A DNA stretch of 64,000 nt, taken from positions 242,692 to 306,691 of the forward strand of contig NZ_CANMFD010000001.1 of assembly GCF_947496995.1 (NCBI RefSeq). The letters are read 5' to 3'. The notes under the pieces were generated by a model that was not told the origin of the DNA, searched no databases, and was given only the letters and a program-made list of their open reading frames with translations. The stretch comes from an uncultured Roseibium sp. GTDB lineage: Bacteria; Pseudomonadota; Alphaproteobacteria; Rhizobiales; Stappiaceae. Shown here piece by piece: positions 8,716-60,278 of the stretch (the first letter of the stretch is position 1; each line of letters begins with the position of its first letter). The translations under genes and the position numbers were made by a program.

Positions 8716-9764
8716 CTGTCGGCCTCGAAAGTGGCGATCTGGTCGCGGGTAACCTGAAGTGGGTCGGCGCCTTCCGCAACCTGGCGGTACCAGGTGACCG
8801 TTTTTTCGATCGCGTTCGCGAACCGCCAGGCAGGCGCCCAGCCGAGGTCGCAGCGTGCCTTGTCGATCGACAGCGAAAGACGGCCGGCTTCGTGGACGGC
8901 ATGCGCGTCGGACGCGTCGGTCCATTTGCCGGGCCAGTGTTGCAGGATGGTATCGGCCAGGTCCCGAACGGAAAACACATCGGCCGGCTCGGGGCCGAAA
9001 TTATATCCGCACTGGAACCGCGCATCTGCCGCCAAATGCACGCGTTCGGCCAGAGTGAGATAACCCTCGAGCGGATCGAGCACATGCTGCCAGGGACGGA
9101 TCGAGGCGGGATTGCGGATTTCTGCCGGATTTCCGGCTTGCAGGGAGCGGATGATATCGGGAACCAGACGATCCTCCGCCCAATCCCCACCACCGATGAC
9201 ATTGCCCGCCCGGGCCGTTGCTATCTTCAAACCGCCGCCGCCGAAGGACCGGCGCCAGCTGGCGGACACGAGTTCGGTGGCTGCCTTGGAGGCCGAATAC
9301 GGATCGTATCCGCCGAGCGGATCGTTCTCGCGGTAGGCATACGCCCATTCGTGGTTTTCATAGACCTTGTCGGTGGTCACGACGATGACCGTCACCGGTC
9401 GATCCAGCCTGTGCAGCGCGTCCAGAAGATGAACGGTGCCCATCACATTGGTCGCCCAGTTTCCGACCGGATCCTTGTAGGAACGGCGGACCAGGGACTG
9501 GGCCGCAAGATGAAGAACGATTTCCGGCCGGGTCGCGGCAACTTCCTTCTGCAGCGCATCCGCATCGCGGATGTCGAGAAGGGCGTTTCTCATCCGGGTG
9601 TCCAGTTTCAGGCCGGCATATAGGCTGCTGTCTCCCTCGGCGGGAAGCGCGATGCCGGAAACCTCGGCACCCCGTCCGATCAGCAGTTCGCTCAACCAGG
9701 CTCCCTTGAAACCCGTATGCCCGGTCAGGAGAACCTTTCTGTCTTGCCAGAAGCTCATCGCCAT
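8712..9764 (-). CDS. rfbG: CDP-glucose 4,6-dehydratase
   Basis: 350 aa. LLTGHTGFKGAWLSELL with YSASK catalytic motif. Directly downstream of the cytidylyltransferase. Confidence 0.88.
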   Translation of the reverse strand: MAMSFWQDRKVLLTGHTGFKGAWLSELLIGRGAEVSGIALPAEGDSSLYAGLKLDTRMRNALLDIRDADALQKEVAATRPEIVLHLAAQSLVRRSYKDPVGNWATNVMGTVHLLDALHRLDRPVTVIVVTTDKVYENHEWAYAYRENDPLGGYDPYSASKAATELVSASWRRSFGGGGLKIATARAGNVIGGGDWAEDRLVPDIIRSLQAGNPAEIRNPASIRPWQHVLDPLEGYLTLAERVHLAADARFQCGYNFGPEPADVFSVRDLADTILQHWPGKWTDASDAHAVHEAGRLSLSIDKARCDLGWAPAWRFANAIEKTVTWYRQVAEGADPLQVTRDQIATFEADR

Positions 9765-10529
9765 CTACCAGATCTTCCAGGGCGCTGTTCCGGACTGCCA
9801 TAGATTTTCAAGCTGGTTCTTGTCGCGCAGCGTGTCCATGGCGGCCCAATAGCCTTCATGCCGGAAAACGCCCAGTTGACCGTCCTTCGCAAGACCTTCC
9901 AGAGGGCCCGCTTCCCAGGGAATATCGTCGCCGACGATACGCGAGAGGACGGAAGGCTCGCAAACGAAATAGCCACCATTGATCCACTGGCCGTCGCCAA
10001 GGGGCTTTTCAAGGAAGTTGACCACACGGCCATCCGATATTTCCAGAGATCCGTAGCGTCCCGGCGGCTGAATGGCGGTCACGGTCGCTTCAAGGCCGCT
10101 GGTCTTGTGTTGCGCGACCAGCCGGTCGACCCGGATGTCGGCGACGCCGTCCCCGTAGGTGAGGCAGAACGTGTCATCGATATAATCCGCCACCCGCTTG
10201 ATGCGCCCGCCCGTCATCGTGCTTTCGCCGGTATCGACCAGCGTGACCTTCCAGGGTTCCGCCTGACGGCGATGCACTTCCATGCGGTTCTCGTCCATGT
10301 GGAAGGTGACGTCCGACATATGCAGGAAATAGTTGGCGAAATACTCCTTGATCACATAGCCTTTGTAGCCGCAGCAGATGACGAATTCGGTGATCCCGTT
10401 GGCCGCGTAGATCTTCATGATGTGCCAGAGAATGGGCCGTCCGCCGATCTCGATCATGGGTTTGGGTTTGAGATGCGATTCCTCGCTGATGCGGGTTCCC
10501 AATCCACCGGCCAGAATAACTGCTTTCAT
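9765..10529 (-). CDS. rfbF: glucose-1-phosphate cytidylyltransferase
   Basis: [41 protein letters not shown] matches RfbF/DdhA closely as I recognise it. Confidence 0.9.
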
Positions 10530-32011: not shown

Positions 32012-33186
32012 TTGCGGAAAATTCCACCCAGGCGTTTCAGTGGACCTATAACGAAAACGATCAGGAGTTCGCCCTGCACGGCAGCCTCCGCCCGCAGAAG
32101 GCGGAAGAGCTGAGCAACTGCATTTCGGCGCTCGATCAGTCTGTTTCCAACGTCAGCGGCAAATTCTACGTGAATGTCCGCCGCCTGGTGCGCATGAACA
32201 ATGTCGCCTTCCATGCCATCGCCTGCAAGATCCTGGATCTGGTGCGCGGTCGCAGCGACCTCGACGTCCATGTGACCACGTCGAGCGTTGTTGGCTGGGC
32301 AACGCGAAAGTTCGCGGTCCTGGAAACCATGTCCGACAAGATCACGGTGAGCGAATACGACAGCGAGTTCTACCCGGGTCAGTCCTTTGTCGAGGATAGT
32401 GAATTCATCCACGTCCTGCGCACCCAGACGAAATTGACGTGGAAGCATGAAAAGGACCTGCTGCGACAGCACGGCCTGAAGCCCGGCATGCAGGTTGCCG
32501 ACATCTGCTGCGGGATCGGTGATTTCGCGGTCCTTTTGCAGAAGGAATTCAGCCCGGACCGGCTGGTCGCGCTGGATCATTCCAAATCGAGCCTCGATTA
32601 TGCGCGTCAGGTTGCCGCGGACTTCGGCATCAAGGGGATCGACTATGTTTTCGGCGATGCGGCCGACATGCTGCTGGAGGACAATCAGTTCGATTTCGTC
32701 ACCTGCAGGCATTCCCTCCAGGTTTTCGACCGACCCGAACTGATCCTCAAGGAACTCTTCCGGATCTGCAAACCGGGCGGCCGGATCTACGTCACCAACG
32801 AGAAGAACTCCCATTGCCTGGGCGAGCCGCGCGGCGAGTCGATCCAGTGGACCTACAACGAGGTCGCCAAGCTCTGGCATCATTTCGACATGGACATCGA
32901 GATCGGCCCGAAAAGCCGGCGCTTGCTGATCGAAGGCGGCTTCGAGGATGTGACCATCGGCTCCTTCATGGTCACCAGCACCGATGGTGACCCGCAGGGC
33001 TTCGCCGATATCATTGCCTCGTGGAAGAACCTCTTCGCCGGCAAGATGGCAAGCGAGCGCGGTGACGATGCGGCTTTTGTCGAGCGTTTCGCCAAGGGAT
33101 TTGACGACCACATCTTTGCGGCGCTTCACCCCAAGGGATATGCCGGATGGCCGATCTGGGTGGCCTCGGGGCGCAAGCCGCTATGA
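32008..33186 (+). CDS. fusion protein: N-terminal STAS/SiaC-like ('slr1659-type') domain + class I SAM-dependent methyltransferase
   Basis: Residues ~1-115 are paralogous to the 112 aa protein at 36148-36486. MTase motifs present: VADICCGIGDF, ALDHS, FDFVTCRHSL, KPGGRIYV. Confidence 0.7.
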   Translation: MIAENSTQAFQWTYNENDQEFALHGSLRPQKAEELSNCISALDQSVSNVSGKFYVNVRRLVRMNNVAFHAIACKILDLVRGRSDLDVHVTTSSVVGWATRKFAVLETMSDKITVSEYDSEFYPGQSFVEDSEFIHVLRTQTKLTWKHEKDLLRQHGLKPGMQVADICCGIGDFAVLLQKEFSPDRLVALDHSKSSLDYARQVAADFGIKGIDYVFGDAADMLLEDNQFDFVTCRHSLQVFDRPELILKELFRICKPGGRIYVTNEKNSHCLGEPRGESIQWTYNEVAKLWHHFDMDIEIGPKSRRLLIEGGFEDVTIGSFMVTSTDGDPQGFADIIASWKNLFAGKMASERGDDAAFVERFAKGFDDHIFAALHPKGYAGWPIWVASGRKPL

Positions 33187-35567
33187 CGACACCGGCTACC
33201 ACTTCGCCGAGCGAAAAGCAGATCGGCCGCTTTTCGCTGCGCAGCTTCCGCGCCAAGTTCATGCTGGTCGTGGGCGCCGCGGTTCTGTTCGACCTCGCGC
33301 TTGCAGGCGGCATCGGCATCTGGAACGTCCAGCGGCTGTCTAAGGACGCCACCCAGCAGGTCGGTGACGGTCTCACCACGGCGACCGAGGAATATCTCCA
33401 GACCTATATCGACACGACGGCGTTCCGGGCCGATCTGCTGATCGAGCGGGTGCACTCGGAACTCGCGACGCTCGCCACCACCATGCAGACGCTGATCGAT
33501 CATCCTGAAATCCAGGAAGCGGTCGGCGATACCGTGACCGGCAGCCCGGATTTTTCCTCGCCTCTGGCTTATGACGCCAACGGTGGATGGGCCCAGAACG
33601 AGGCCGGCGTGCCCTCGGCCGTCAGCGTCTGGGGATACCTGCTCGACGAAAACAGGCAACCGGTGCCCAAAGCCGCCGAAGAGCTGAAAAAGAGTGCCTT
33701 CCTCAGCCTCGTCGGCCCTTCGATGATGTCGACGGGCGCGCCCAAGCTGCAAATCTATTATGTCGGCCCGAAAGACGCCTCGATCATGCGGGCGACCCCT
33801 TATTCCGAACAGGCGCAGACGTTCGATCTGCTCTATCCGGGACACAACGAAGGCCCGAACTTCTGGGACTTCTTTTTCCCCGGCGTCTATGAAGGCTGGC
33901 AGGCATGGATCGCGGACCCGTCCTCGAAGCCGGTGGACTCCAACATCGTCACCACGGCGCCCTATGTGGACGCGATCACCGGCGAACTGATCGTCAGCTT
34001 CTTTCATCCGCTATGGTCGAGCGACCGCAAGGACCTGGCCGGCATGGTGGCGGTCGACATCACCCTTGAACAGCTCACATCGCTGGTCGAGAGTCTTGAA
34101 ATTTCCGAGACCGGCTTCGGCTTCCTGGCCATGTCCGACGGCAATGTGGTGGCGACCAACTCCATAGGCGAGGAAACCCTGGGTCTCGTTTCCACCGATG
34201 TCAGCGGTCAGGGCGTCACCGGGGTCAACCGGAACCTGAAGGAAAGCAGCCAGGCCGCGATTGCCTCGCTTGAGCTCAATGCGACCCATGAAACGGTCAT
34301 CGAGCATATCTTCCTCGATCAGGGCGGCGAGGAAGTGCCCTATCTTCTCGTGCTCAAGCAGCTCAATCCCACCAACCTGTGGGACGGGGCGGGGATCACC
34401 GGTGAAACGATGACCCTCGGGTTCGTCGTCTCGGAGCGGGAAATCTACCAGTCCCTGATCGACGCGACCGACAATATCTCCGCCGCAACGACGCGCATCC
34501 TGAACTATCAGATCATCGCTTTCTTCTTCAGCATCGTGGTGGTCTTCCTGGCTGTCTACGCGATCTCCGGTCGTATCACCAAAGGCCTGTCGCGGCTGGC
34601 AGATGCTGCCAGGGCGTTGCAGAACAAGGACTATTCCGTCCGCGTCGAGATCCCCACCCGTGACGAAGTGGCGGCGGTGGGCCTGGCGTTCAATCGCATG
34701 GCGGAAGAGATCAGCTATCATACCGAGAACCTGGAAAACCTGGTCGAGGAACGCACCAAAAAGCTGGAGACCGCCAACAGCGAGATCGTCGCGCTGAATG
34801 CACGCCTGAAGTCCGAAAACAGCAGGCTGGGCGCCGAGCTCGACATCGCCAAGCGTATTCAGGAGATGGTGCTTCCGCGCCTCAGCGAGCTGGAAATCAT
34901 CCCGCAGATCGAGATCGCCGCCTTCATGGAGCCGGCGGACGAGGTCGGCGGAGACTATTACGACGTTCTGTTCGACGGCGAGCACATCAAGGTCGGTATC
35001 GGCGACGTGACCGGTCACGGGCTGGAAAGCGGCGTCCTGATGCTGATGGTCCAGTCTGTCGCCCTGGCGCTGCAGGAAAAGGGTGACAGGGATCCTGTCG
35101 CCTTTCTCGATGTCCTGAACCGGGCGGTCTTCAAGAACATCACCAGGACCCGCTCCGACAAGCACCTGACGCTGGCCTTTGTCGATTATCACGAAGGCAA
35201 GGTGACCTTGTCCGGCCAGCACGAAGAGGTTCTGATCATTCGCGCGAACGGCGAAACGGAACGCATCGACACCATCGATCTCGGCTTCCCGGTCGGTCTT
35301 GAAGAGGACATCTCACCCTTCGTCGCCACCCTGGACATGCCCTTCGGGCCGGAGGATGTTCTCATCCTGCACACGGACGGCATCACCGAAGCGGAAAACG
35401 ACAAGGGCGAGATGTTCGGCATCGATCGGCTCAGCGAGAGTGCACATGAAAACCGGCTGAAATCGGCGAAGGGTATTGCGGAAGCGGTCATACTTGATGT
35501 CAAGTCGCATATTGGCGGGCATAAGGTATTCGATGACATCACACTTGTCGTACTGAAGCATAGGTAG
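33183..35567 (+). CDS. membrane sensor PP2C/SpoIIE phosphatase (TM - Cache-like periplasmic domain - TM - HAMP - coiled coil - PP2C), SiaA/RsbU-like
   Basis: TM1 FMLVVGAAVLFDLALAGGIGIW and TM2 IIAFFFSIVVVFLAVYAI. HAMP region (GLSRLADAARALQNKDYSVRVEI…EVAAVGLAFNRMAEE). PP2C motifs GGDYYD, IGDVTGHG and LHTDGITE. Start at ATG 33183 overlaps the upstream stop. Confidence 0.85.
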   Translation: MTTPATTSPSEKQIGRFSLRSFRAKFMLVVGAAVLFDLALAGGIGIWNVQRLSKDATQQVGDGLTTATEEYLQTYIDTTAFRADLLIERVHSELATLATTMQTLIDHPEIQEAVGDTVTGSPDFSSPLAYDANGGWAQNEAGVPSAVSVWGYLLDENRQPVPKAAEELKKSAFLSLVGPSMMSTGAPKLQIYYVGPKDASIMRATPYSEQAQTFDLLYPGHNEGPNFWDFFFPGVYEGWQAWIADPSSKPVDSNIVTTAPYVDAITGELIVSFFHPLWSSDRKDLAGMVAVDITLEQLTSLVESLEISETGFGFLAMSDGNVVATNSIGEETLGLVSTDVSGQGVTGVNRNLKESSQAAIASLELNATHETVIEHIFLDQGGEEVPYLLVLKQLNPTNLWDGAGITGETMTLGFVVSEREIYQSLIDATDNISAATTRILNYQIIAFFFSIVVVFLAVYAISGRITKGLSRLADAARALQNKDYSVRVEIPTRDEVAAVGLAFNRMAEEISYHTENLENLVEERTKKLETANSEIVALNARLKSENSRLGAELDIAKRIQEMVLPRLSELEIIPQIEIAAFMEPADEVGGDYYDVLFDGEHIKVGIGDVTGHGLESGVLMLMVQSVALALQEKGDRDPVAFLDVLNRAVFKNITRTRSDKHLTLAFVDYHEGKVTLSGQHEEVLIIRANGETERIDTIDLGFPVGLEEDISPFVATLDMPFGPEDVLILHTDGITEAENDKGEMFGIDRLSESAHENRLKSAKGIAEAVILDVKSHIGGHKVFDDITLVVLKHR

Positions 35568-35570
35568 GGT

Positions 35571-36116
35571 ATGGTCGAGGATTACGGAAATACGGCTGCA
35601 GTCAACGGCGCCGATGCCAGGCGCTTTGCCCTCAAGCTGATGGCGGAGCCACTGGAGTTGAGCTGGCATCATTGCGGTGTCACCTCCGATTTCTTCGGCG
35701 AGTATTTCAGCCGCGCCTGCGACGGCAGCGTGGATGCTGTGGACGCCCGCCACAGCATCAGCTACATGATCAACGAGATCCTGGAAAACGCCATCAAGTT
35801 CCGCAAAGGCGGCAATATCGACATCACCGGCAGCCTGGAGGACGGGACGTTCGAACTCCTGATCAGGAACCGGATCGATGCGGGCACGGCGGAAAGCTTC
35901 AAGGCACACCTTGCGCAACTGCTCGAGCGTGAGCCGGGCGAGCTGTTGCTGGAGCGCATCGAGGAAAATGCTCTCAATCCGGACTCGACCGGTTCGGGAC
36001 TTGGAATCCTCACGCTCATGAGCGATTACGAAGCCAAATTGGGCTGGTCTTTCGCCTCCGAGCATGTAAGTGAAGGCGTAGAGTTGACGACCTATGCGTC
36101 TTTGCGACTTTCCTGA
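35571..36116 (+). CDS. GHKL-type serine/threonine kinase / anti-sigma-factor-like protein (SiaB/RsbW-like, 'slr1658-type')
   Basis: 181 aa. N-box NEILENAIKF and G-box DSTGSGLGILTL. Starts 3 nt after the phosphatase stop. Confidence 0.7.
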   Translation: MVEDYGNTAAVNGADARRFALKLMAEPLELSWHHCGVTSDFFGEYFSRACDGSVDAVDARHSISYMINEILENAIKFRKGGNIDITGSLEDGTFELLIRNRIDAGTAESFKAHLAQLLEREPGELLLERIEENALNPDSTGSGLGILTLMSDYEAKLGWSFASEHVSEGVELTTYASLRLS

Positions 36117-36147
36117 TCGCTGAAATATTCCAAAGGAAGACACCACA

Positions 36148-36486
36148 ATGGAAATCAGCACGAACGATTACCGCGTTTGGACTGAAGGTTCGACCATCCA
36201 CTATGAAGGTACGATGCGGCTCTCCGGCACGGATGCCTACGCGCCGATCCTGGAAGCCATGAATTCCATTCTGGCCGCCAAGCCGGAACTCATCACGCTT
36301 GACCTGACTAGCCTGCAGTTTCTCAACAGCTCGGGCATCAACCTGCTTGCCAAATTCACCATCGAAATCAGGAAGCAGCCGGAAGTCGGCGTCCGGGTTC
36401 TCGGGTCGAAGTCGATCCCCTGGCAATCGAAATCCCTCCGTAACCTGCAGCGTCTGCACCCCGCCCTGGAACTGACGATTTCCTGA
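36148..36486 (+). CDS. small STAS/SiaC-like partner-switching protein ('slr1659-type')
   Basis: 112 aa. LITLDLTSLQFLNSSGINLL resembles the phospho-acceptor loop of anti-anti-sigma factors and SiaC. SD AAGGAAG lies upstream. Confidence 0.65.
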   Translation: MEISTNDYRVWTEGSTIHYEGTMRLSGTDAYAPILEAMNSILAAKPELITLDLTSLQFLNSSGINLLAKFTIEIRKQPEVGVRVLGSKSIPWQSKSLRNLQRLHPALELTIS

Positions 36487-36684
36487 CCGCAATGCGGTCA
36501 GCCGCCTGAAGGTATCCGGGTGAATTTCCGCCTGGAAAGCCCGCTGCGGTTCGATGTTTTCCGGTGTGCAGCCATGCTGCAGGCGCGGCGCGCCCCGCCG
36601 CTCCGCTGATCTCCGCGCATTTTCCCTAAAGTTGGAACGGATCTTCACTTCAGGCGTTTGCCCCGCAACAGCGGGGTATATCGC

Positions 36685-37644
36685 ATGGAATTTTCTGAAG
36701 AGAACAGGCAGGAGCTGCCGGAGCCGTCTGGCGCCCGGTCCACACGTCGCGTCGGCGTCGAAATCGAATTCGGCGGACTGACCGCGATTGAAGCAGCCGA
36801 AGTCGTCGTTGCGCAGCTTGGGGGCGATATCGAGAAGATCGACAGGCACCGCTACCGTCTCGTTGGTACGGCGCTGGGAGACTTCAAGGTCGAGCTCGAC
36901 AGCAAATACGTGCACAGCGAGGACGACGCCTCGGACCTGGAACGCAAGGTCCGCAGCTTTGCCGGTGATCTGACAGGACCGATCGTTCCGACCGAGTTGG
37001 TCACCGATCCTTTGCCGGTTTCCCGGATCGGGGAAATCGACGCGCTGCTTGACCGCCTCGTCGCAGCCGGGGCGCTCGGCACGCAGCAGCTTCATCTGGC
37101 CTGCGGGCTGCATCTCAATGTCGAGTGGAACGACCGGGATATCCTGCCCATCTTGCGTATCCTGCAGGCCTACCTGATCAGTTCGCCTGACCTCCGCCGT
37201 GAGATTGCGCCCGATCCGATGAGGACACTGCTGCCGTTTATCGGTCACTTTCCGGAGGACTATCAGGACAAGGTTCTGGCCCCGGACTACCAACCGGATT
37301 TCAAGCGCTTTGTCGTCGATTACTGCCGCGCCAACCCGTCGAAGAACCGCGAGCTGGACCTGTTGCCGCTGCTCGCTTCGATTGATGAGGACACCGTCGC
37401 GGAAGCGCTCGGTCACCCGCCGGAGGCCGTGCGCCCCGCGTTCCACTACCGTCTGCCCAACGCCTCCCTTGGCGAGAGCAACTGGTCGATCGAAAAGGAA
37501 TGGGATCGCTGGTTGTCCGTGGAGGCGCTGGCAGTGGATGAGGACAGGCTCAAGGCCGCTCTGTCCGCACGAAAAATGCCCGACACCAAACAGGAAGAGA
37601 CGGGGACCTTTACCCGGATACTCAAGCGGGTGATCGGCAAATGA
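36685..37644 (+). CDS. Amidoligase_2-family (glutamine-synthetase-fold) COOH-NH2 ligase, substrate unknown
   Basis: The N-terminal RRVGVEIEFGG strand motif and size (~320 aa) fit the putative amidoligase family. Start chosen at MEFSEENR (ATG 36685). Confidence 0.55.
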   Translation: MEFSEENRQELPEPSGARSTRRVGVEIEFGGLTAIEAAEVVVAQLGGDIEKIDRHRYRLVGTALGDFKVELDSKYVHSEDDASDLERKVRSFAGDLTGPIVPTELVTDPLPVSRIGEIDALLDRLVAAGALGTQQLHLACGLHLNVEWNDRDILPILRILQAYLISSPDLRREIAPDPMRTLLPFIGHFPEDYQDKVLAPDYQPDFKRFVVDYCRANPSKNRELDLLPLLASIDEDTVAEALGHPPEAVRPAFHYRLPNASLGESNWSIEKEWDRWLSVEALAVDEDRLKAALSARKMPDTKQEETGTFTRILKRVIGK

Positions 37645-38354
37645 AACCGCTGATCGGAGTTTCCACATCCGCGCGCGGCGGCTGGCGGTCCTTTCTGGCG
37701 ATCCGCTTTGCGCTCTGGCGCGCCGGGGCGACCGCAAGGCGCATCACCGCCGGAAAACCATATGATCTGAACGAGCTTGACGGCATCATCGCCGGCGGCG
37801 GCGATGATATTTCCGCGACGCTCTACGGTGGCAGCCTGATACCGGACGTCCGGCTCGATCCGGAACGCGATGCGCTCGAAACTAAGCTCATCCGGTCGGC
37901 GGTCAGCCGCGGGTTGCCCGTTCTGGGCATCTGCCGCGGCGCGCAGATGATCAATGTGTCGCTTGGCGGAAATCTCCATGCCGACGTTTGGGAAGCGTTC
38001 AAGAGCGCGCCCGAAATACGCACTGTGCTGCCGCGCAAGCGGATCACAGTGTCGAAAGACTCATGGCTCGACACGATTCTGGAGTGTGACGGCTGCCGTG
38101 TGAATGCCTTGCACCACCAGTCGGTGGACTCTCTCGGAGAGGGGTTGAGAGTGAGCGCCACAGATGACTACGGCATCATTCAGGCCATCGAGTCGGTCTC
38201 CCGCCCGCAGATACTTGGCGTCCAGTGGCACCCCGAACTGATGCCCTTCACGCGCAATCAACTCGGGCTGTTCACCTGGCTCGCCGACACCGCCAGAAAC
38301 CGCGAAACGAAAACAGAGCATTTCATGCCCGGATTTGAGCGCCAGGCCGGGTGA
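37641..38354 (+). CDS. peptidase C26 / class I glutamine-amidotransferase-like gamma-glutamyl hydrolase (PuuD-like)
   Basis: PVLGICRGAQMINV (nucleophile Cys), NALHHQS and VQWHPE (His/Glu of the triad). ATGA overlap with the amidoligase gene. Confidence 0.8.
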   Translation: MKPLIGVSTSARGGWRSFLAIRFALWRAGATARRITAGKPYDLNELDGIIAGGGDDISATLYGGSLIPDVRLDPERDALETKLIRSAVSRGLPVLGICRGAQMINVSLGGNLHADVWEAFKSAPEIRTVLPRKRITVSKDSWLDTILECDGCRVNALHHQSVDSLGEGLRVSATDDYGIIQAIESVSRPQILGVQWHPELMPFTRNQLGLFTWLADTARNRETKTEHFMPGFERQAG

Positions 38355-38414: not shown

Positions 38415-39551
38415 CTACACGACATGAACAGCAAGCGGCCCGAAGCCGTTGAAGCCGACCGAGGCATAGGTCGACGTGTAGGCGCCGGTTCCCTCGATCA
38501 GGACGTCGTCGCCGATCTGCAAATTGTGCGGCAGACGGCAGGGTCTTTGTTCGTAAAGCACATCGGCTGAATCGCAGGTCGGTCCCGCGAGAATATACGG
38601 GACCGTTGCCGTGTTTCCGTATCTGGTCGTCAGCGGATAGCGGATAGCCTCGTCCATGGTTTCCGCCAAACCGCCGAACTTGCCGATGTCGAGGTAAACC
38701 CATTGCAGCGGGTCTCCTGGGGATTTACTGGAAATTAGCACGACTTCGGACCTTATGGTGCCGGCATTGCCGACGAGACCGCGGCCCGGTTCGATCACCG
38801 TGTCGGGAAGCGCGTTGCCGAAATGGGCTCTCAGGGCGCGCCGGATTTCCCGGCCGTAATCGCCCGGTCCGGGAACGTCGCTCAGATACCGCGCCGGAAA
38901 GCCGCCGCCCAGATTGAGGCACCTGATCAGGACGCCTTCGTCGGCCAGCGTCTGAACCACTTTCGCTGCCTGTTCCAGGCTGCGCTGCCAGGCGGCCGGA
39001 TCGGTCTGCTGGGAACCGACATGAAAGGACAGGCCGCAGGGATCGAGACCGCGTTGCCGGGCAAGATGCATGACGCAGATCGCGACGTAAGGATCGCAGC
39101 CGAATTTTCGCGACAACGGCCATTCGGCGCCGGCCCCGTCGGTCAATAGCCGGCAAAACACCTGAGAGCCGGGGGCGGCGCGGGCGATCTTTTCGACTTC
39201 CGCCGGGCAATCGACCGCGAATTGCCGAACACCCATACGGTACGCCTGCGCGATGTCGCGTTCTTTCTTGATGGTGTTGCCATAGGAAATGTCGCAGGCG
39301 GCAGCTCCCGCCTCCAGAACCATGTTCACCTCGGCAACGGAAGCGACATCGAACGAGGCTCCGAGCCCGACAAGCAACTCCAGGATCTCGGGCGCGGGAT
39401 TGGCTTTGACCGCATAGTGGATTCTGGTTTGCGGCAGGGACCGCTGCAGCGCGCGGTAGGTCTTCCGGACGATCTCCAGATCAACGACAAGGCATGGCCC
39501 GTCGGCGAGGTCGCGGCGGTCCAGAAAATTGAGAATCTTTTTCGTGGTCAT
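38415..39551 (-). CDS. ornithine (lysine/ornithine) decarboxylase, alanine-racemase-fold PLP enzyme
   Basis: IHYAVKANP (PLP Lys), FDVAS, LNLGGGFP, and AGPTCDSAD near the C-terminus. Confidence 0.85.
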   Translation of the reverse strand: MTTKKILNFLDRRDLADGPCLVVDLEIVRKTYRALQRSLPQTRIHYAVKANPAPEILELLVGLGASFDVASVAEVNMVLEAGAAACDISYGNTIKKERDIAQAYRMGVRQFAVDCPAEVEKIARAAPGSQVFCRLLTDGAGAEWPLSRKFGCDPYVAICVMHLARQRGLDPCGLSFHVGSQQTDPAAWQRSLEQAAKVVQTLADEGVLIRCLNLGGGFPARYLSDVPGPGDYGREIRRALRAHFGNALPDTVIEPGRGLVGNAGTIRSEVVLISSKSPGDPLQWVYLDIGKFGGLAETMDEAIRYPLTTRYGNTATVPYILAGPTCDSADVLYEQRPCRLPHNLQIGDDVLIEGTGAYTSTYASVGFNGFGPLAVHVV

Positions 39552-59234: not shown

Positions 59235-60278
59235 ATGTCCGCACCCCAAGCAGTTTCACAAGATCAGTCGGCCGCTATGCCGCCGTTCAAGCTGATGGCG
59301 CAGATCACGGCCTATCGCACGTCCCAATGTATCCGGGCCCTGGTCGAACTCGGCATTCCCGCACTTCTGGAGCAGGACGCAAGGTCGGTGGAAGACCTCG
59401 CGCAGGCAACCGGGACGCAGCCCGGTCTGCTCGACCGGCTGCTGAACCACCTCGTCAACGAGGAGGTCATCGGCAAGGATGACGAGGGCCGTTACATAGC
59501 GCTGCCTGTCACCGTCCACCTGGTGCCCGGACACCCGCGGAGCCTGAGCAACTGGGTCGCCTGTGAACTCGATCCGCTCCTGTGGCGCTCCTGGGAGAAC
59601 CTCACCGAACAGCTGCGGTCCGGAACAACGGCTTTCGACCTGGCCCACGGGTCTGCTTTTTTCGAATGGCACGCACAGGACAGCGAGGCCCAGAAGCGTT
59701 TCGACGACCAGATGAATGGCGCTTCGCGCGGCATAGGCGCCGTTGTCGTCCAGACCCTGCAGTTCGAACCGGGCACGAGGCTGACGGATGTCGGCGGAGG
59801 CAACGGCTCGTTCCTGGCCCAGACGCTGGAAAAAAATCCGGGAACCGAGGGCATCCTGTTCGAACTGCCGCGATCTTCCGAAGACTTCGACCCGTTGTTC
59901 GAGGAGATGCAGCGGCAGGGCCGGGCAACCGTTACCAACGGATCGTTTTTCGAAAGCGTTCCCGGCGGCGCGGATGTTTACCTGTTCAGCCGTGTCTTTC
60001 ACGACTTCAACGATGAGGCGGCGACGCTGATCCTGAAGAACACCAGACGCGCCCTCGCCGGAGGCGAGCGCCTGCTGCTGATCGACATGATGGCCAATGA
60101 TGCGCAGGCCGGAGCACGCGGGTCCTCGCAGGACATCTTCATGCTCACGCAGCTCGGCGGGCGGGAGCGGACGGCAGAAGAATTTTCCGGTCTTCTTGCC
60201 AAATCCGGGTTCGAGACGCTATCCGTCACACCAACGGCAAGCCCGGTCAGCATCTTGGAGTTTCGCCCGGCGGTTTGA
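59235..60278 (+). CDS. class I SAM-dependent O-methyltransferase (Methyltransf_2 / COMT-like with N-terminal winged-helix dimerisation domain)
   Basis: 347 aa. LTDVGGGNGSF SAM motif. N-terminal LVELGIPALL…VEDLA dimerisation-type segment. C-terminal DVYLFSRVFHDFNDE. Confidence 0.8.
   Translation: MSAPQAVSQDQSAAMPPFKLMAQITAYRTSQCIRALVELGIPALLEQDARSVEDLAQATGTQPGLLDRLLNHLVNEEVIGKDDEGRYIALPVTVHLVPGHPRSLSNWVACELDPLLWRSWENLTEQLRSGTTAFDLAHGSAFFEWHAQDSEAQKRFDDQMNGASRGIGAVVVQTLQFEPGTRLTDVGGGNGSFLAQTLEKNPGTEGILFELPRSSEDFDPLFEEMQRQGRATVTNGSFFESVPGGADVYLFSRVFHDFNDEAATLILKNTRRALAGGERLLLIDMMANDAQAGARGSSQDIFMLTQLGGRERTAEEFSGLLAKSGFETLSVTPTASPVSILEFRPAV

What the first reader, a model, noticed from the sequence alone, without database searches (positions are those of the whole stretch)
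36685..38354. Translationally coupled Amidoligase_2-type ligase and peptidase C26 hydrolase between the partner switch and the polyamine genes
SEEN: 36685-37644 opens with RRVGVEIEFGG. Its stop overlaps the start of 37641-38354 (ATGA). The second protein carries the C26/GATase-I triad context (GICRGAQMINV, HHQS, WHPE). The pair follows the partner-switch genes on the same strand after a 198-nt gap. It is convergent with ornithine decarboxylase (38415-39551). ESTABLISHED: in the E. coli Puu pathway, a GS-fold ligase (PuuA) gamma-glutamylates putrescine and a C26 hydrolase (PuuD) removes the gamma-glutamyl group. The Amidoligase_2 family is a computationally defined GS-fold COOH-NH2 ligase group with almost no biochemical characterisation. 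INFERENCE: this pair forms a ligase and hydrolase cycle acting on a gamma-glutamyl-amine (a polyamine or siderophore precursor) or on a small peptide or protein tag. It would be an analogue of PuuA/PuuD built with a non-orthologous ligase.
Basis: partly seen in the sequence, partly recalled or inferred. Interest (0 to 1): 0.65.

Follow-up and report, generated by a model that had tools for sequence, protein, structure and literature searches.

The report
Stress-regulated amidoligase and gamma-glutamyl hydrolase pair
Two overlapping genes encode an ATP-dependent amide-forming enzyme and a cysteine hydrolase that cuts gamma-glutamyl amides; the pairing was first noted in 2008, its chemistry has never been tested, and here it sits behind a general-stress promoter with no conserved link to the neighbouring polyamine gene.

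Summary
36685-37644 is an Amidoligase_2 protein (PF12224, 1.4e-46). 37641-38354 is a Peptidase_C26 protein (PF07722, 3.7e-44) with a Cys98-His197-Glu199 triad. The genes overlap by ATGA.

The pair is a real, conserved unit. In 73 of 80 related genomic loci, C26 lies directly downstream. The two genes overlap by 4 nt or 1 nt in about 50 of these 73 loci. At least 35 protein clusters are natural amidoligase-C26 fusions.

No third gene is conserved. The partner switch recurs in only 1 of 80 loci, and ornithine decarboxylase in none. The polyamine or siderophore reading therefore rests on chance adjacency.

The pairing is not new. [quoted passage not shown]

Three things were added here:
- A perfect EcfG-type general-stress promoter motif (GGAAC-N16-CGTT) lies 51 nt before the start codon. 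A related motif recurs upstream in 18 of 48 alphaproteobacterial loci and 0 of 29 Halomonadaceae loci.
- Translational coupling is conserved across the family.
- Some relatives are DedA(VTT)-amidoligase fusions.

The best reading is a self-contained, stress-induced synthetase/hydrolase pair for a gamma-glutamyl amide of unknown substrate. The main rival is a glutamine-dependent amidotransferase.

It is a new member of a known but uncharacterised kind.

The parts
36634..36658 (+). ECF/EcfG-type promoter motif GGAAC-N16-CGTT (GGAACGGATCTTCACTTCAGGCGTT), 51 nt upstream of the amidoligase ATG
   Evidence: Read from the sequence and found by regex. It is one of only two hits on either strand of the 64-kb window; the other lies antisense inside a coding region. 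It is conserved in R. marinum within a roughly 85-nt block that is about 90% identical. It matches the R. etli sigma-EcfG1 consensus GGAAC-N16-CGTT (PMC3892343) and the S. melonis motif GGAAC-N17-20-GTT (PMC6599016). The relaxed motif lies upstream of the amidoligase in 18/48 alphaproteobacterial loci, against 5/430 other ORFs in the same loci.
36661..36676 (+). Stem-loop CCCCGC-AACA-GCGGGG between the -10 element and the start codon. It would lie at the 5' end of the mRNA, and its 3' arm holds the only Shine-Dalgarno-like G-run.
   Evidence: Fold of 36659-36705: -16.7 kcal/mol, z = -3.1 against shuffles. The stem and loop are identical in R. marinum. Its function has not been tested.
36685..37644 (+). 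Amidoligase_2 (PF12224) gene, 319 aa: predicted ATP-dependent carboxylate-amine ligase
   Evidence: Pfam 1.4e-46. 586 homologues in the first search and 1030 representatives at 50% identity. Invariant residues are E26, E28, E70, D72, E104, N145, R222, R250, H254 and R256, and H143 is nearly invariant. They fall on predicted strands of an AF2 model with pLDDT 85. They match the superfamily motifs listed in PMC2588565.
36754..36768 (+). Codons for G24-V25-E26-I27-E28, the GhExE signature of carboxylate-amine/ammonia ligases
   Evidence: Sequence. E26 and E28 are invariant and G24 and V25 nearly invariant in 28 homologues. The signature is defined in PMC2588565.
37641..37644 (+). ATGA start/stop overlap (translational coupling)
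   Evidence: The same 4-nt overlap occurs in 37 related loci as scored and a 1-nt overlap in 11; three further loci have an overlapping ATG under the alternative start choice.
37641..38354 (+). Peptidase_C26 / class I GATase-fold gene, 237 aa: predicted gamma-glutamyl-amide hydrolase
   Evidence: Pfam PF07722 3.7e-44, PF00117 6e-14. PDB sequence relatives are Lin1909 3fij, SpuA 7d4r and PuuD 6vtv. 35% identity to E. coli PuuD. It is below the PuuD equivalog cut-off.
37932..37934 (+). Codon of Cys98, the predicted nucleophile in GICRGAQ
   Evidence: At least 97% conserved across the 74 C26 partner proteins, with the corresponding Cys466 invariant in 34 fusion proteins.
38229..38237 (+). Codons of His197-Pro198-Glu199 (WHPE), completing the Cys-His-Glu triad
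   Evidence: At least 97% conserved across the 74 C26 partner proteins, with the corresponding H565/E567 invariant in the fusions.

Best explanation
The two genes encode one self-contained, two-part enzyme that is sometimes fused.

The amidoligase uses ATP to activate a carboxylate as an acyl-phosphate. By analogy with every characterised relative, this is most probably the gamma-carboxylate of glutamate. It then joins the carboxylate to an amine. The C26 partner uses its Cys98-His197-Glu199 triad to hydrolyse a gamma-glutamyl amide through a thioester intermediate.

Together they would make and remove a gamma-glutamyl amide on one still-unknown small-molecule substrate. That substrate could be an amine, an amino acid or a glutathione-like peptide. 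The logic resembles the bifunctional glutathionylspermidine synthetase/amidase more than the multi-step Puu pathway.

In this genome and many other Alphaproteobacteria the operon has its own EcfG-type promoter, so it is probably switched on by the general stress response. It is probably not co-transcribed with the upstream partner-switch genes.

Shown:
- the domain families and catalytic residues;
- conservation of the pair, of the coupling and of the fusions;
- absence of any other conserved partner;
- enrichment of the promoter motif.

Inferred:
- ATP dependence;
- the gamma-glutamyl nature of the bond;
- that both enzymes act on the same bond;
- stress induction.

Unknown: the substrate.
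For: - Family assignments and catalytic motifs.
- C26 lies directly downstream in 73/80 loci.
- The stop and start overlap in about 50 of those 73 loci.
- At least 35 clusters of natural amidoligase-to-C26 fusions exist, both active sites are intact in the 34 that were aligned, and an AF2 model of one fusion has pTM 0.73.
- Pairwise identities of the two proteins are correlated, r = 0.88.
- No third conserved gene among 85 non-redundant neighbours.
- The C26 part is closer in sequence and in predicted structure to the hydrolases Lin1909, PuuD and SpuA than to the glutaminase subunits of amidotransferases.
- The literature reports that the same ligase family pairs with an AIG2 gamma-glutamyl cyclotransferase in firmicutes. 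That is a second, unrelated enzyme type that cuts gamma-glutamyl amides (PMC2588565).
- Promoter: the strict motif lies 51 nt upstream and is conserved in R. marinum. The relaxed motif occurs in 18/48 alphaproteobacterial loci, 0/29 Halomonadaceae loci and upstream of 5/430 control ORFs.
Against: - No member of PF12224 has been characterised biochemically in any paper I could find.
- No solved structure is detectable by sequence or by fold.
- The GS fold itself was not confirmed independently. Foldseek puts YbdK and glutamine synthetases among its top hits only at E 0.2-1.3. hhalign against single E. coli YbdK and PuuA sequences gives a probability below 1%.
- A ligase and a hydrolase acting on the same bond, expressed 1:1 or fused, would burn ATP unless one of them is regulated. 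No such regulation is shown here.
- Seven of 80 loci have the ligase without C26.
- The promoter is a consensus match only.
Confidence: 0.45

Rival explanations
1. A two-subunit glutamine-dependent amidotransferase. C26 acts as a glutaminase and passes ammonia to the amidoligase. The amidoligase has activated a carboxylate with ATP and converts it to a carboxamide. This would be like MurT/GatD or CTP synthase, but built on a GS-type synthetase.
For: - The second protein has the class I GATase fold and triad.
- Tight 1:1 coupling and frequent fusion are the rule for amidotransferases.
- There is no third partner, so the unit is self-sufficient.
- Phage amidoligases of the same Pfam family are reported next to an unrelated class of GATase, PF13522 (PMC10580990).
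- The fusion model has a fairly confident overall arrangement, pTM 0.73.
Against: - The protein scores three times higher on the C26 hydrolase model than on the GATase model.
- Its nearest solved relatives are hydrolases that release bulky amines.
- To my knowledge, no characterised C26-family member is a glutaminase subunit, and no GS-fold ligase is known to take ammonia from a GATase.
- In firmicutes the partner is a gamma-glutamyl cyclotransferase, which is not an ammonia donor.
- No coordinates were available, so a channel could not be examined.
Confidence: 0.2
2. The pair forms the first and last steps of a Puu-like catabolic or biosynthetic route for polyamines or a siderophore precursor. 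Oxidation steps in between would be supplied by other genes.
For: - C26 is 35% identical to E. coli PuuD.
- A convergent Orn/DAP-type decarboxylase and iron-siderophore-type ABC genes lie downstream in this window.
Against: - The decarboxylase is adjacent in 0/80 related loci, including the 77%-identical R. marinum locus.
- No aldehyde dehydrogenase, amine oxidase or amine permease is enriched among neighbours.
- The C26 protein scores far below the PuuD equivalog cut-off.
- Fusing the first and last steps of a multi-step pathway would be unusual.
- The general-stress promoter does not suggest substrate-induced catabolism.
Confidence: 0.1
3. The substrate is at the membrane or in the envelope. 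The pair reversibly modifies an amine- or carboxylate-bearing lipid head group or a lipid-linked precursor.
For: - In four representative clusters a DedA/VTT membrane domain is fused to the N-terminus of the amidoligase. In both such genes whose surroundings could be read, the C26 gene still lies next to it.
- Lipid genes lie nearby in unrelated lineages. A PLD-family protein lies downstream in 8 Azospirillum-type loci. A YegS-type lipid kinase and a CDP-alcohol phosphatidyltransferase are in L091.
- MscS-type channels lie next to the pair in Halomonadaceae and in L091.
Against: - The window protein itself has no membrane domain.
- The fusions are a small minority (4 among the 150 best of 1030 representatives).
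- The lipid neighbours are lineage-specific synteny and are not enriched overall.
- DedA fusion could equally mean coupling to transport of a soluble substrate.
Confidence: 0.1
4. A peptide- or protein-tagging system, with a ligase that writes and a thiol peptidase that erases, in the manner of PafA/Dop.
For: The ligase belongs to the same superfamily as the Pup ligase PafA (PMC2588565). The partner is a cysteine amidohydrolase.
Against: - No conserved small ORF or other partner lies next to the pair.
- The authors who defined the family reached the same negative conclusion.
- There is no match in PADLOC, and the amidoligase matches no PHROG family.
Confidence: 0.05

Closest known systems
The 'new carboxylate-amine ligase' family of Iyer, Burroughs and Aravind 2008 (Biol Direct 3:45, PMC2588565), which I take to be the basis of Pfam PF12224 Amidoligase_2, with its neighbouring 'glutamine amidotransferase-like thiol peptidase'
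   Same: Same ligase family by HMM. The paper reports the same partner type in proteobacteria, and this window has it. The superfamily motifs match. This window is one more instance of that gene pair.
   Different: Nothing differs in kind. Added here are numbers for co-conservation, coupling and fusion, the lack of any third partner, the EcfG-type promoter and the DedA fusions.
E. coli PuuA/PuuD and Pseudomonas PauA/SpuA-PauD (gamma-glutamylation pathways for polyamines)
   Same: An ATP-dependent ligase predicted to share the GS fold, plus a C26 hydrolase. The C26 protein is homologous to PuuD and SpuA.
   Different: - The ligase is not a Gln-synt_C (PF00120) protein. It has no detectable sequence similarity to PuuA beyond the ExE strand.
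- No PuuB/PuuC-type oxidising steps, transporter or repressor are present.
- The genes here are coupled or fused, whereas in E. coli puuA and puuD are divergently transcribed.
- The C26 protein scores below the PuuD equivalog cut-off.
Glutathionylspermidine synthetase/amidase (E. coli Gsp); comparison from my own knowledge
   Same: An ATP-dependent amide ligase and a cysteine amidase act on the same bond in one polypeptide. This shows that a fused make-and-break pair can be physiological, with the amidase cysteine switched off by oxidation.
   Different: The folds are unrelated (ATP-grasp plus CHAP, against amidoligase plus C26). The comparison is an analogy of logic only, and nothing here tests it.
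Heteromeric class I glutamine amidotransferases such as MurT/GatD
   Same: A ligase-type synthetase gene is followed by a triad GATase-fold gene, with 1:1 coupling or fusion.
   Different: The GATase-fold partner belongs to the C26 hydrolase branch. The synthetase fold is different. No ammonia channel or glutamine dependence has been shown.
Phage amidoligase cassettes (phiEco32, LUZ24, RIO-1 type)
   Same: Same Pfam family. The structural match of the AF2 model to phage amidoligases has E 5e-5 and TM about 0.5. These cassettes are also found with glutamine-amidotransferase-type and gamma-glutamyl cyclotransferase genes.
   Different: The window protein matches no PHROG family at E <= 1e-3. The phage partner is a different class of GATase (PF13522), within larger cassettes that include ATP-grasp enzymes.

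Membership tests
Pfam PF12224 Amidoligase_2 | Score above the curated gathering threshold over the full model | tested here: met
   159.8 bits against 22; model positions 2-244 of 245.
Carboxylate-amine/ammonia ligase superfamily (GS fold), as defined in PMC2588565 | GhExE on core strand 1 | tested here: met
   G24-V25-E26-I27-E28 lies in predicted strand 22-30. E26 and E28 are invariant and G24 and V25 nearly invariant in 28 homologues.
Carboxylate-amine/ammonia ligase superfamily (GS fold), as defined in PMC2588565 | Acidic residues on strands 2 and 3; [HD]x[NH] on strand 4; conserved arginines; Ex[RK]x2D-type motif on strand 6 | tested here: met
   - E70/D72 in strand 65-71.
- E104 in strand 103-107.
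- H143-L-N145 in strand 142-147.
- R222 and R250.
- H254-Y-R256-L-P-N259 in strand 252-257.
All are invariant except H143, which is nearly invariant, and N259, which is N or D across the alignment. The strand assignment rests on an AF2 model, not on a solved structure.
Carboxylate-amine/ammonia ligase superfamily (GS fold), as defined in PMC2588565 | Significant structural or profile similarity to a solved GS-fold enzyme | tested here: inconclusive
   - Foldseek against PDB finds nothing at E <= 0.001. YbdK 1r8g ranks 3 (E 0.29). Glutamine synthetases 7v4i and 4bax and the kinase McsB also appear.
- hhalign against single YbdK and PuuA sequences gives probability below 1%, although the short aligned stretches are the ExE strand and the RP..H strand.
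- hmmscan at E <= 10 gives no GS or GCS family.
Carboxylate-amine/ammonia ligase superfamily (GS fold), as defined in PMC2588565 | ATP-dependent amide-bond formation | not testable with these tools
   Needs an enzyme assay. I found no published assay for any PF12224 member.
Peptidase C26 / class I GATase fold | HMM score above threshold, and a Cys-His-Glu triad in the GxCxGxQ and HPE contexts | tested here: met
   PF07722 151.6 bits against 20.5. C98, H197 and E199 are at least 97% conserved across the 74 partner proteins. Solved relatives are 3fij, 7d4r and 6vtv at E 3e-24 to 8e-21.
PuuD (gamma-glutamyl-GABA hydrolase) orthologue group, NCBIfam NF008471 | Score above the equivalog cut-off | tested here: not met
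   79.7 bits against a cut-off of 266. It is a C26 relative, not a PuuD orthologue.
Puu/Pau-type gamma-glutamylation pathway | GS-type (PF00120) ligase plus C26 hydrolase, with oxidase/dehydrogenase steps and an amine transporter in the same gene cluster | tested here: not met
   The ligase has no PF00120 match. No such neighbour is enriched among 85 non-redundant flanking genes. No decarboxylase is adjacent in any of the 80 loci.
Glutamine-dependent amidotransferase (heteromeric) | Triad glutaminase tightly coupled or fused to a synthetase | tested here: met
   This feature is shared with the best explanation, so it does not discriminate between the two.
Glutamine-dependent amidotransferase (heteromeric) | Glutaminase activity coupled to the synthetase through an ammonia channel | not testable with these tools
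Alphaproteobacterial sigma-EcfG general stress regulon | GGAAC-N16/17-CGTT promoter within about 100 nt of the coding sequence | tested here: met
   Window 36634-36658, 51 nt before the ATG. Conserved in R. marinum. The consensus is from PMC3892343 and PMC6599016. Enrichment is 18/48 against 5/430.
Alphaproteobacterial sigma-EcfG general stress regulon | EcfG- or PhyR-dependent, stress-induced transcription | not testable with these tools
   Needs expression data. No amidoligase or amidotransferase is mentioned in the main text of the three regulon papers I checked.

The most novel reading that the evidence does not exclude
The pair is a general-stress-induced enzyme that works at the cytoplasmic face of the membrane. 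It reversibly adds a gamma-glutamyl (or amide) group to an amine- or carboxylate-bearing lipid head group or a lipid-linked envelope precursor. That would be a previously unknown reversible membrane modification. The idea is prompted by the DedA(VTT)-amidoligase fusions and by lipid-enzyme and MscS neighbours in unrelated lineages.
Probability: 0.1. Interest if true: 0.8.

Novelty: new member of a known kind. Interest (0 to 1): 0.38.

Why it matters
PF12224 is a sizeable family: about a thousand representative clusters at 50% identity match the profile of this clade alone. I could find no assigned reaction and no solved structure for any member.

This analysis shows three things. The proteobacterial ligase-C26 pair behaves as a single, self-sufficient enzyme. 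It is very probably part of the alphaproteobacterial general stress regulon. The polyamine context in this window is incidental.

That narrows the experiment. Co-express the two proteins, or take a natural fusion, and screen glutamate plus amines against glutamine plus carboxylates. Then look for the product in stressed cells.

If the rival holds, this would be the first GS-type glutamine amidotransferase that I know of. If the membrane reading holds, it would be a new stress-induced lipid or envelope modification.

As it stands, this is a well-supported instance of a known uncharacterised module, not a discovery of a new kind.

Tried and rejected
1. Independent proof of the GS fold failed to reach significance.
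   - Foldseek of the AF2 model against PDB gave no hit at E <= 0.001.
   - A profile search of PDB sequences found nothing.
   - hhalign against E. coli YbdK and PuuA gave probability below 1%.
   - Lax hmmscan gave no GS or GCS families.
   - Only the motif-on-strand test succeeded.
2. The search for a third conserved gene found none.
   - BLAST clustering of flanking ORFs showed only clade-level synteny. The first two crude ORF callers produced antisense shadow ORFs in this high-GC DNA, so they were used only for neighbours.
   - A Pfam survey of 85 non-redundant neighbours found no family in more than 3.
3. A link to the partner switch or to dCache sensors was considered, because a dCache kinase lies upstream in Azospirillum. 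It was not pursued. It is seen in two lineages only and is not enriched.
4. The sigma-70 and terminator scans gave nothing useful. A sigma-54 reading of TGGAAC-N5-TTCAC was rejected by eye because the -12 GC is missing.
5. Defence-system and phage-family libraries: no PADLOC hit for either protein, and no PHROG hit for the ligase.
6. Literature: nine searches found no biochemical characterisation. Iyer et al. 2009 (PMC3268129) is not held. A Klebsiella CfmP paper turned out to concern an ATP-grasp enzyme.
7. The second EcfG-motif hit in the window (59962, minus strand) is antisense inside a coding region, so I treated it as chance.
8. P0306, an apparent N-terminal extension, is probably a mis-called start and not a fusion.
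Full report
**1. The observation**

The window contains ORF 36685-37644 (+), which ORF listing extends to a TTG at 36658. ORF 37641-38354 (+) overlaps it as ATGA.

- The first protein matches Pfam PF12224 Amidoligase_2 end to end: 159.8 bits against a cut-off of 22.
- The second matches PF07722 Peptidase_C26 at 151.6 bits. That is three times its score on the generic class I GATase model.
- All quoted motifs are present: RRVGVEIEFGG, GICRGAQMINV, HHQS and WHPE.
- The 198-nt upstream gap is correct.
- The convergent PLP decarboxylase at 38415-39551 is correct.

The ATG at 36685 is the likely start, for two reasons. The closest homologue aligns from it. The TTG lies inside the predicted -10 element. 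The organism is a relative of Roseibium/Stappia; the best hit is R. marinum at 77% identity.

**2. Is the pair a unit?**

A scan of one genome per species returned at least 592 related loci, and the best 80 were kept. They come from Alphaproteobacteria (Roseibium, Amorphus, Azospirillum, many Rhodospirillales, Rhodobium, Microvirga), Halomonadaceae and one Desulfobotulus.

- In 73 of 80 loci a C26 homologue lies immediately downstream on the same strand.
- As first scored, 37 of those 73 have the same 4-nt stop/start overlap and 11 have a 1-nt overlap. Three more have an overlapping ATG under the alternative start choice. Most of the rest have gaps of 18 nt or less.
- Pairwise identities of the two proteins across loci are correlated: r = 0.88 overall and 0.73 among distant pairs.
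- A search with the two proteins joined end to end found at least 35 clusters of natural fusions of about 590 aa, all in the order amidoligase then C26.
- In an alignment of 34 of these fusions both sets of catalytic residues are invariant.
- An AF2 model of one fusion has pLDDT 81 and pTM 0.73. This suggests a defined arrangement of the two domains, but no coordinates were available to inspect it.
- The C26 partners conserve C98, H197 and E199 in at least 97% of the 74 sequences.

**3. What is not part of it**

- The slr1658/slr1659/SpoIIE partner-switch genes and the methyltransferase recur only in R. marinum.
- There, a block of about 390 nt lies between them and the pair. It appears to hold a small lipoprotein-like ORF.
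- The decarboxylase recurs in none of the 80 loci.
- Clustering of flanking ORFs shows only clade-level synteny.
- Among 85 non-redundant immediate neighbours, no Pfam family occurs more than three times.
- The fusion genes also sit in unrelated housekeeping contexts.

The module is therefore self-contained. The polyamine or siderophore reading rests on an adjacency that is not conserved.

**4. The ligase**

The clade-specific profile finds 1030 representatives at 50% identity. No PDB entry matches by sequence or by fold. The AF2 model (pLDDT 85) does match predicted structures of phage amidoligases at E 5e-5 and TM about 0.5.

[quoted passage not shown] Each one is found here on a predicted strand. 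The residues are invariant in the homologue alignment, apart from H143 (nearly invariant) and N259 (N or D):

| Hallmark | In this protein |
|---|---|
| GhExE on strand 1 | G24-E28 |
| Acidic residues on strands 2 and 3 | E70/D72; E104 |
| [HD]x[NH] on strand 4 | H143-N145 |
| Two arginines | R222, R250 |
| Ex[RK]x2D-type motif on strand 6 | H254-R256-N259 |

Direct profile or fold comparison with YbdK, PuuA or glutamine synthetase stayed below significance. The GS-fold assignment is therefore supported by motifs, not by an independent match.

**5. The hydrolase**

- Its nearest solved relatives are Lin1909, SpuA and PuuD.
- It is 35% identical to E. coli PuuD.
- It scores far below the PuuD equivalog cut-off.
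- The C26 domain of the fusion model also matches these hydrolases at E 1e-13 to 1e-8, ahead of the glutaminase subunits of GMP, PABA and CTP synthases at E 3e-7 or weaker.

**6. Regulation**

The last 85 nt or so before the ATG are about 90% identical between the window and R. marinum, while the proteins are only 77% identical. This block contains two features.

- GGAAC-N16-CGTT at 36634-36658, which is the consensus of alphaproteobacterial sigma-EcfG promoters (PMC3892343; PMC6599016).
- An 8-bp stem-loop centred on 36661-36676, with -16.7 kcal/mol and z = -3.1.

The strict motif occurs only twice in the whole window. The other copy is antisense inside a gene.

| Regions scanned (relaxed motif GGAAC-N17/18-GTT, within 300 nt upstream) | Loci or ORFs with the motif |
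|---|---|
| Amidoligase in alphaproteobacterial loci | 18 of 48 |
| Amidoligase in Halomonadaceae loci (these bacteria lack EcfG, from my own knowledge) | 0 of 29 |
| Other ORFs in the same alphaproteobacterial loci | 5 of 430 |

The binomial p for 18/48 against the control rate is about 1e-22. The 18 loci fall into roughly nine or ten independent lineages, since the Azospirillum loci share ancestry.

This is a prediction from a consensus. It argues that the pair has its own stress-responsive promoter and is not read through from the partner-switch genes.

**7. Mechanism**

All characterised relatives of the ligase activate a glutamate gamma-carboxylate, according to PMC2588565. All characterised C26 enzymes that I know of cut gamma-glutamyl amides. 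In firmicutes the same ligase family is reported next to a gamma-glutamyl cyclotransferase, an unrelated enzyme with the same bond specificity.

The simplest reading is that the ligase makes a gamma-glutamyl amide and the C26 partner removes it, on one unknown substrate. The tight stoichiometric coupling and the fusions do not suit the two ends of a multi-step Puu-like route. They resemble a bifunctional synthetase/amidase such as glutathionylspermidine synthetase/amidase. That comparison is an analogy from my own knowledge and was not tested.

The main rival is a glutamine-dependent amidotransferase. It fits the coupling and fusion equally well. It fits the C26 affiliation and the cyclotransferase partner less well.

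A minority of relatives carry an N-terminal DedA/VTT membrane domain on the ligase. In the two such genes whose surroundings could be read, the C26 gene still lies next to it. Lipid enzymes and MscS channels lie nearby in several unrelated lineages. This keeps a membrane-proximal substrate open.

**8. Novelty**

[quoted passage not shown] The authors inferred a role in glutathione-like peptide synthesis rather than protein tagging (PMC2588565). From memory, the same wording is the Pfam family description.

No biochemical study turned up in nine literature searches.

The finding is therefore a correct and well-supported new member of a known but uncharacterised module. To my knowledge, the new points are the quantified coupling and fusion, the lack of any third partner, the EcfG-type promoter and the DedA fusions.

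Noticed in passing
window 36634-36676: A perfect EcfG-type promoter motif (GGAAC-N16-CGTT) is followed by a conserved stem-loop whose 3' arm holds the only Shine-Dalgarno-like G-run. This may mean 5'-end stabilisation or control of translation.
   Followed up: yes
P0216, P0238, P0272, P0304; L091:5778-7490, L093:1188-2936: These relatives have an N-terminal DedA/VTT membrane domain fused to the amidoligase. In L091-L093 the C26 gene still lies immediately downstream.
   Followed up: partly
L044:10101-12044; L091:3796-4764 and 9440-10078; L031:5562-7937; L091:2904-3815; L027:11547-11975; L093:291-824: Membrane, lipid and stress genes recur near the pair in unrelated lineages. They are a PLD-family protein (Azospirillum group), a YegS-type lipid kinase and a CDP-alcohol phosphatidyltransferase, MscS-type channels (Halomonadaceae and L091), OsmC, and a weak match to YflT. 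They are not enriched overall, so this may be synteny only.
   Followed up: partly
L003, L004, L005, L009, L013, L064, L079: Seven loci have the amidoligase but no C26 gene within 8 kb. Five form a Rhodospirillales group where the ligase is flanked by a class V aminotransferase and an EamA transporter. Whether C26 lies elsewhere in those genomes is unknown.
   Followed up: partly
window 36487-36684 versus L001:7410-8000: R. marinum has about 390 extra nt here that seem to encode a small lipoprotein-like ORF. The window keeps only what looks like the 5' remnant (around 36554-36610), so this is an indel between close relatives.
   Followed up: partly
window 36484-36500: The inverted repeat TGACCGC-AAT-GCGGTCA overlaps the stop codon of the STAS-like gene. 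It has no T-run, so it is not a canonical terminator, and it is only partly conserved in R. marinum.
   Followed up: no
window 36016-37737 (-): A 573-aa antisense ORF covers the whole amidoligase gene. It is the kind of shadow ORF common in high-GC DNA, and similar shadows appeared in the related loci. I did not treat it as a gene.
   Followed up: partly
window 33147-35567 and L017:5996-7876, L086:4950-6644: A dCache_1 sensor protein lies upstream on the same strand both here (dCache-HAMP-SpoIIE phosphatase) and in Azospirillum (dCache histidine kinase). This is seen in two lineages only and could be coincidence.
   Followed up: partly
P0158 (378 aa): A relative of the C26 protein (54% identity) is fused to a PF08327 domain rather than to an amidoligase.
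   Followed up: no
window 59938-59962 (-): This is the second strict GGAAC-N17-CGTT hit in the window. It lies antisense inside a 347-aa ORF at 59235-60278 (+), and I took it to be a chance match.
   Followed up: yes
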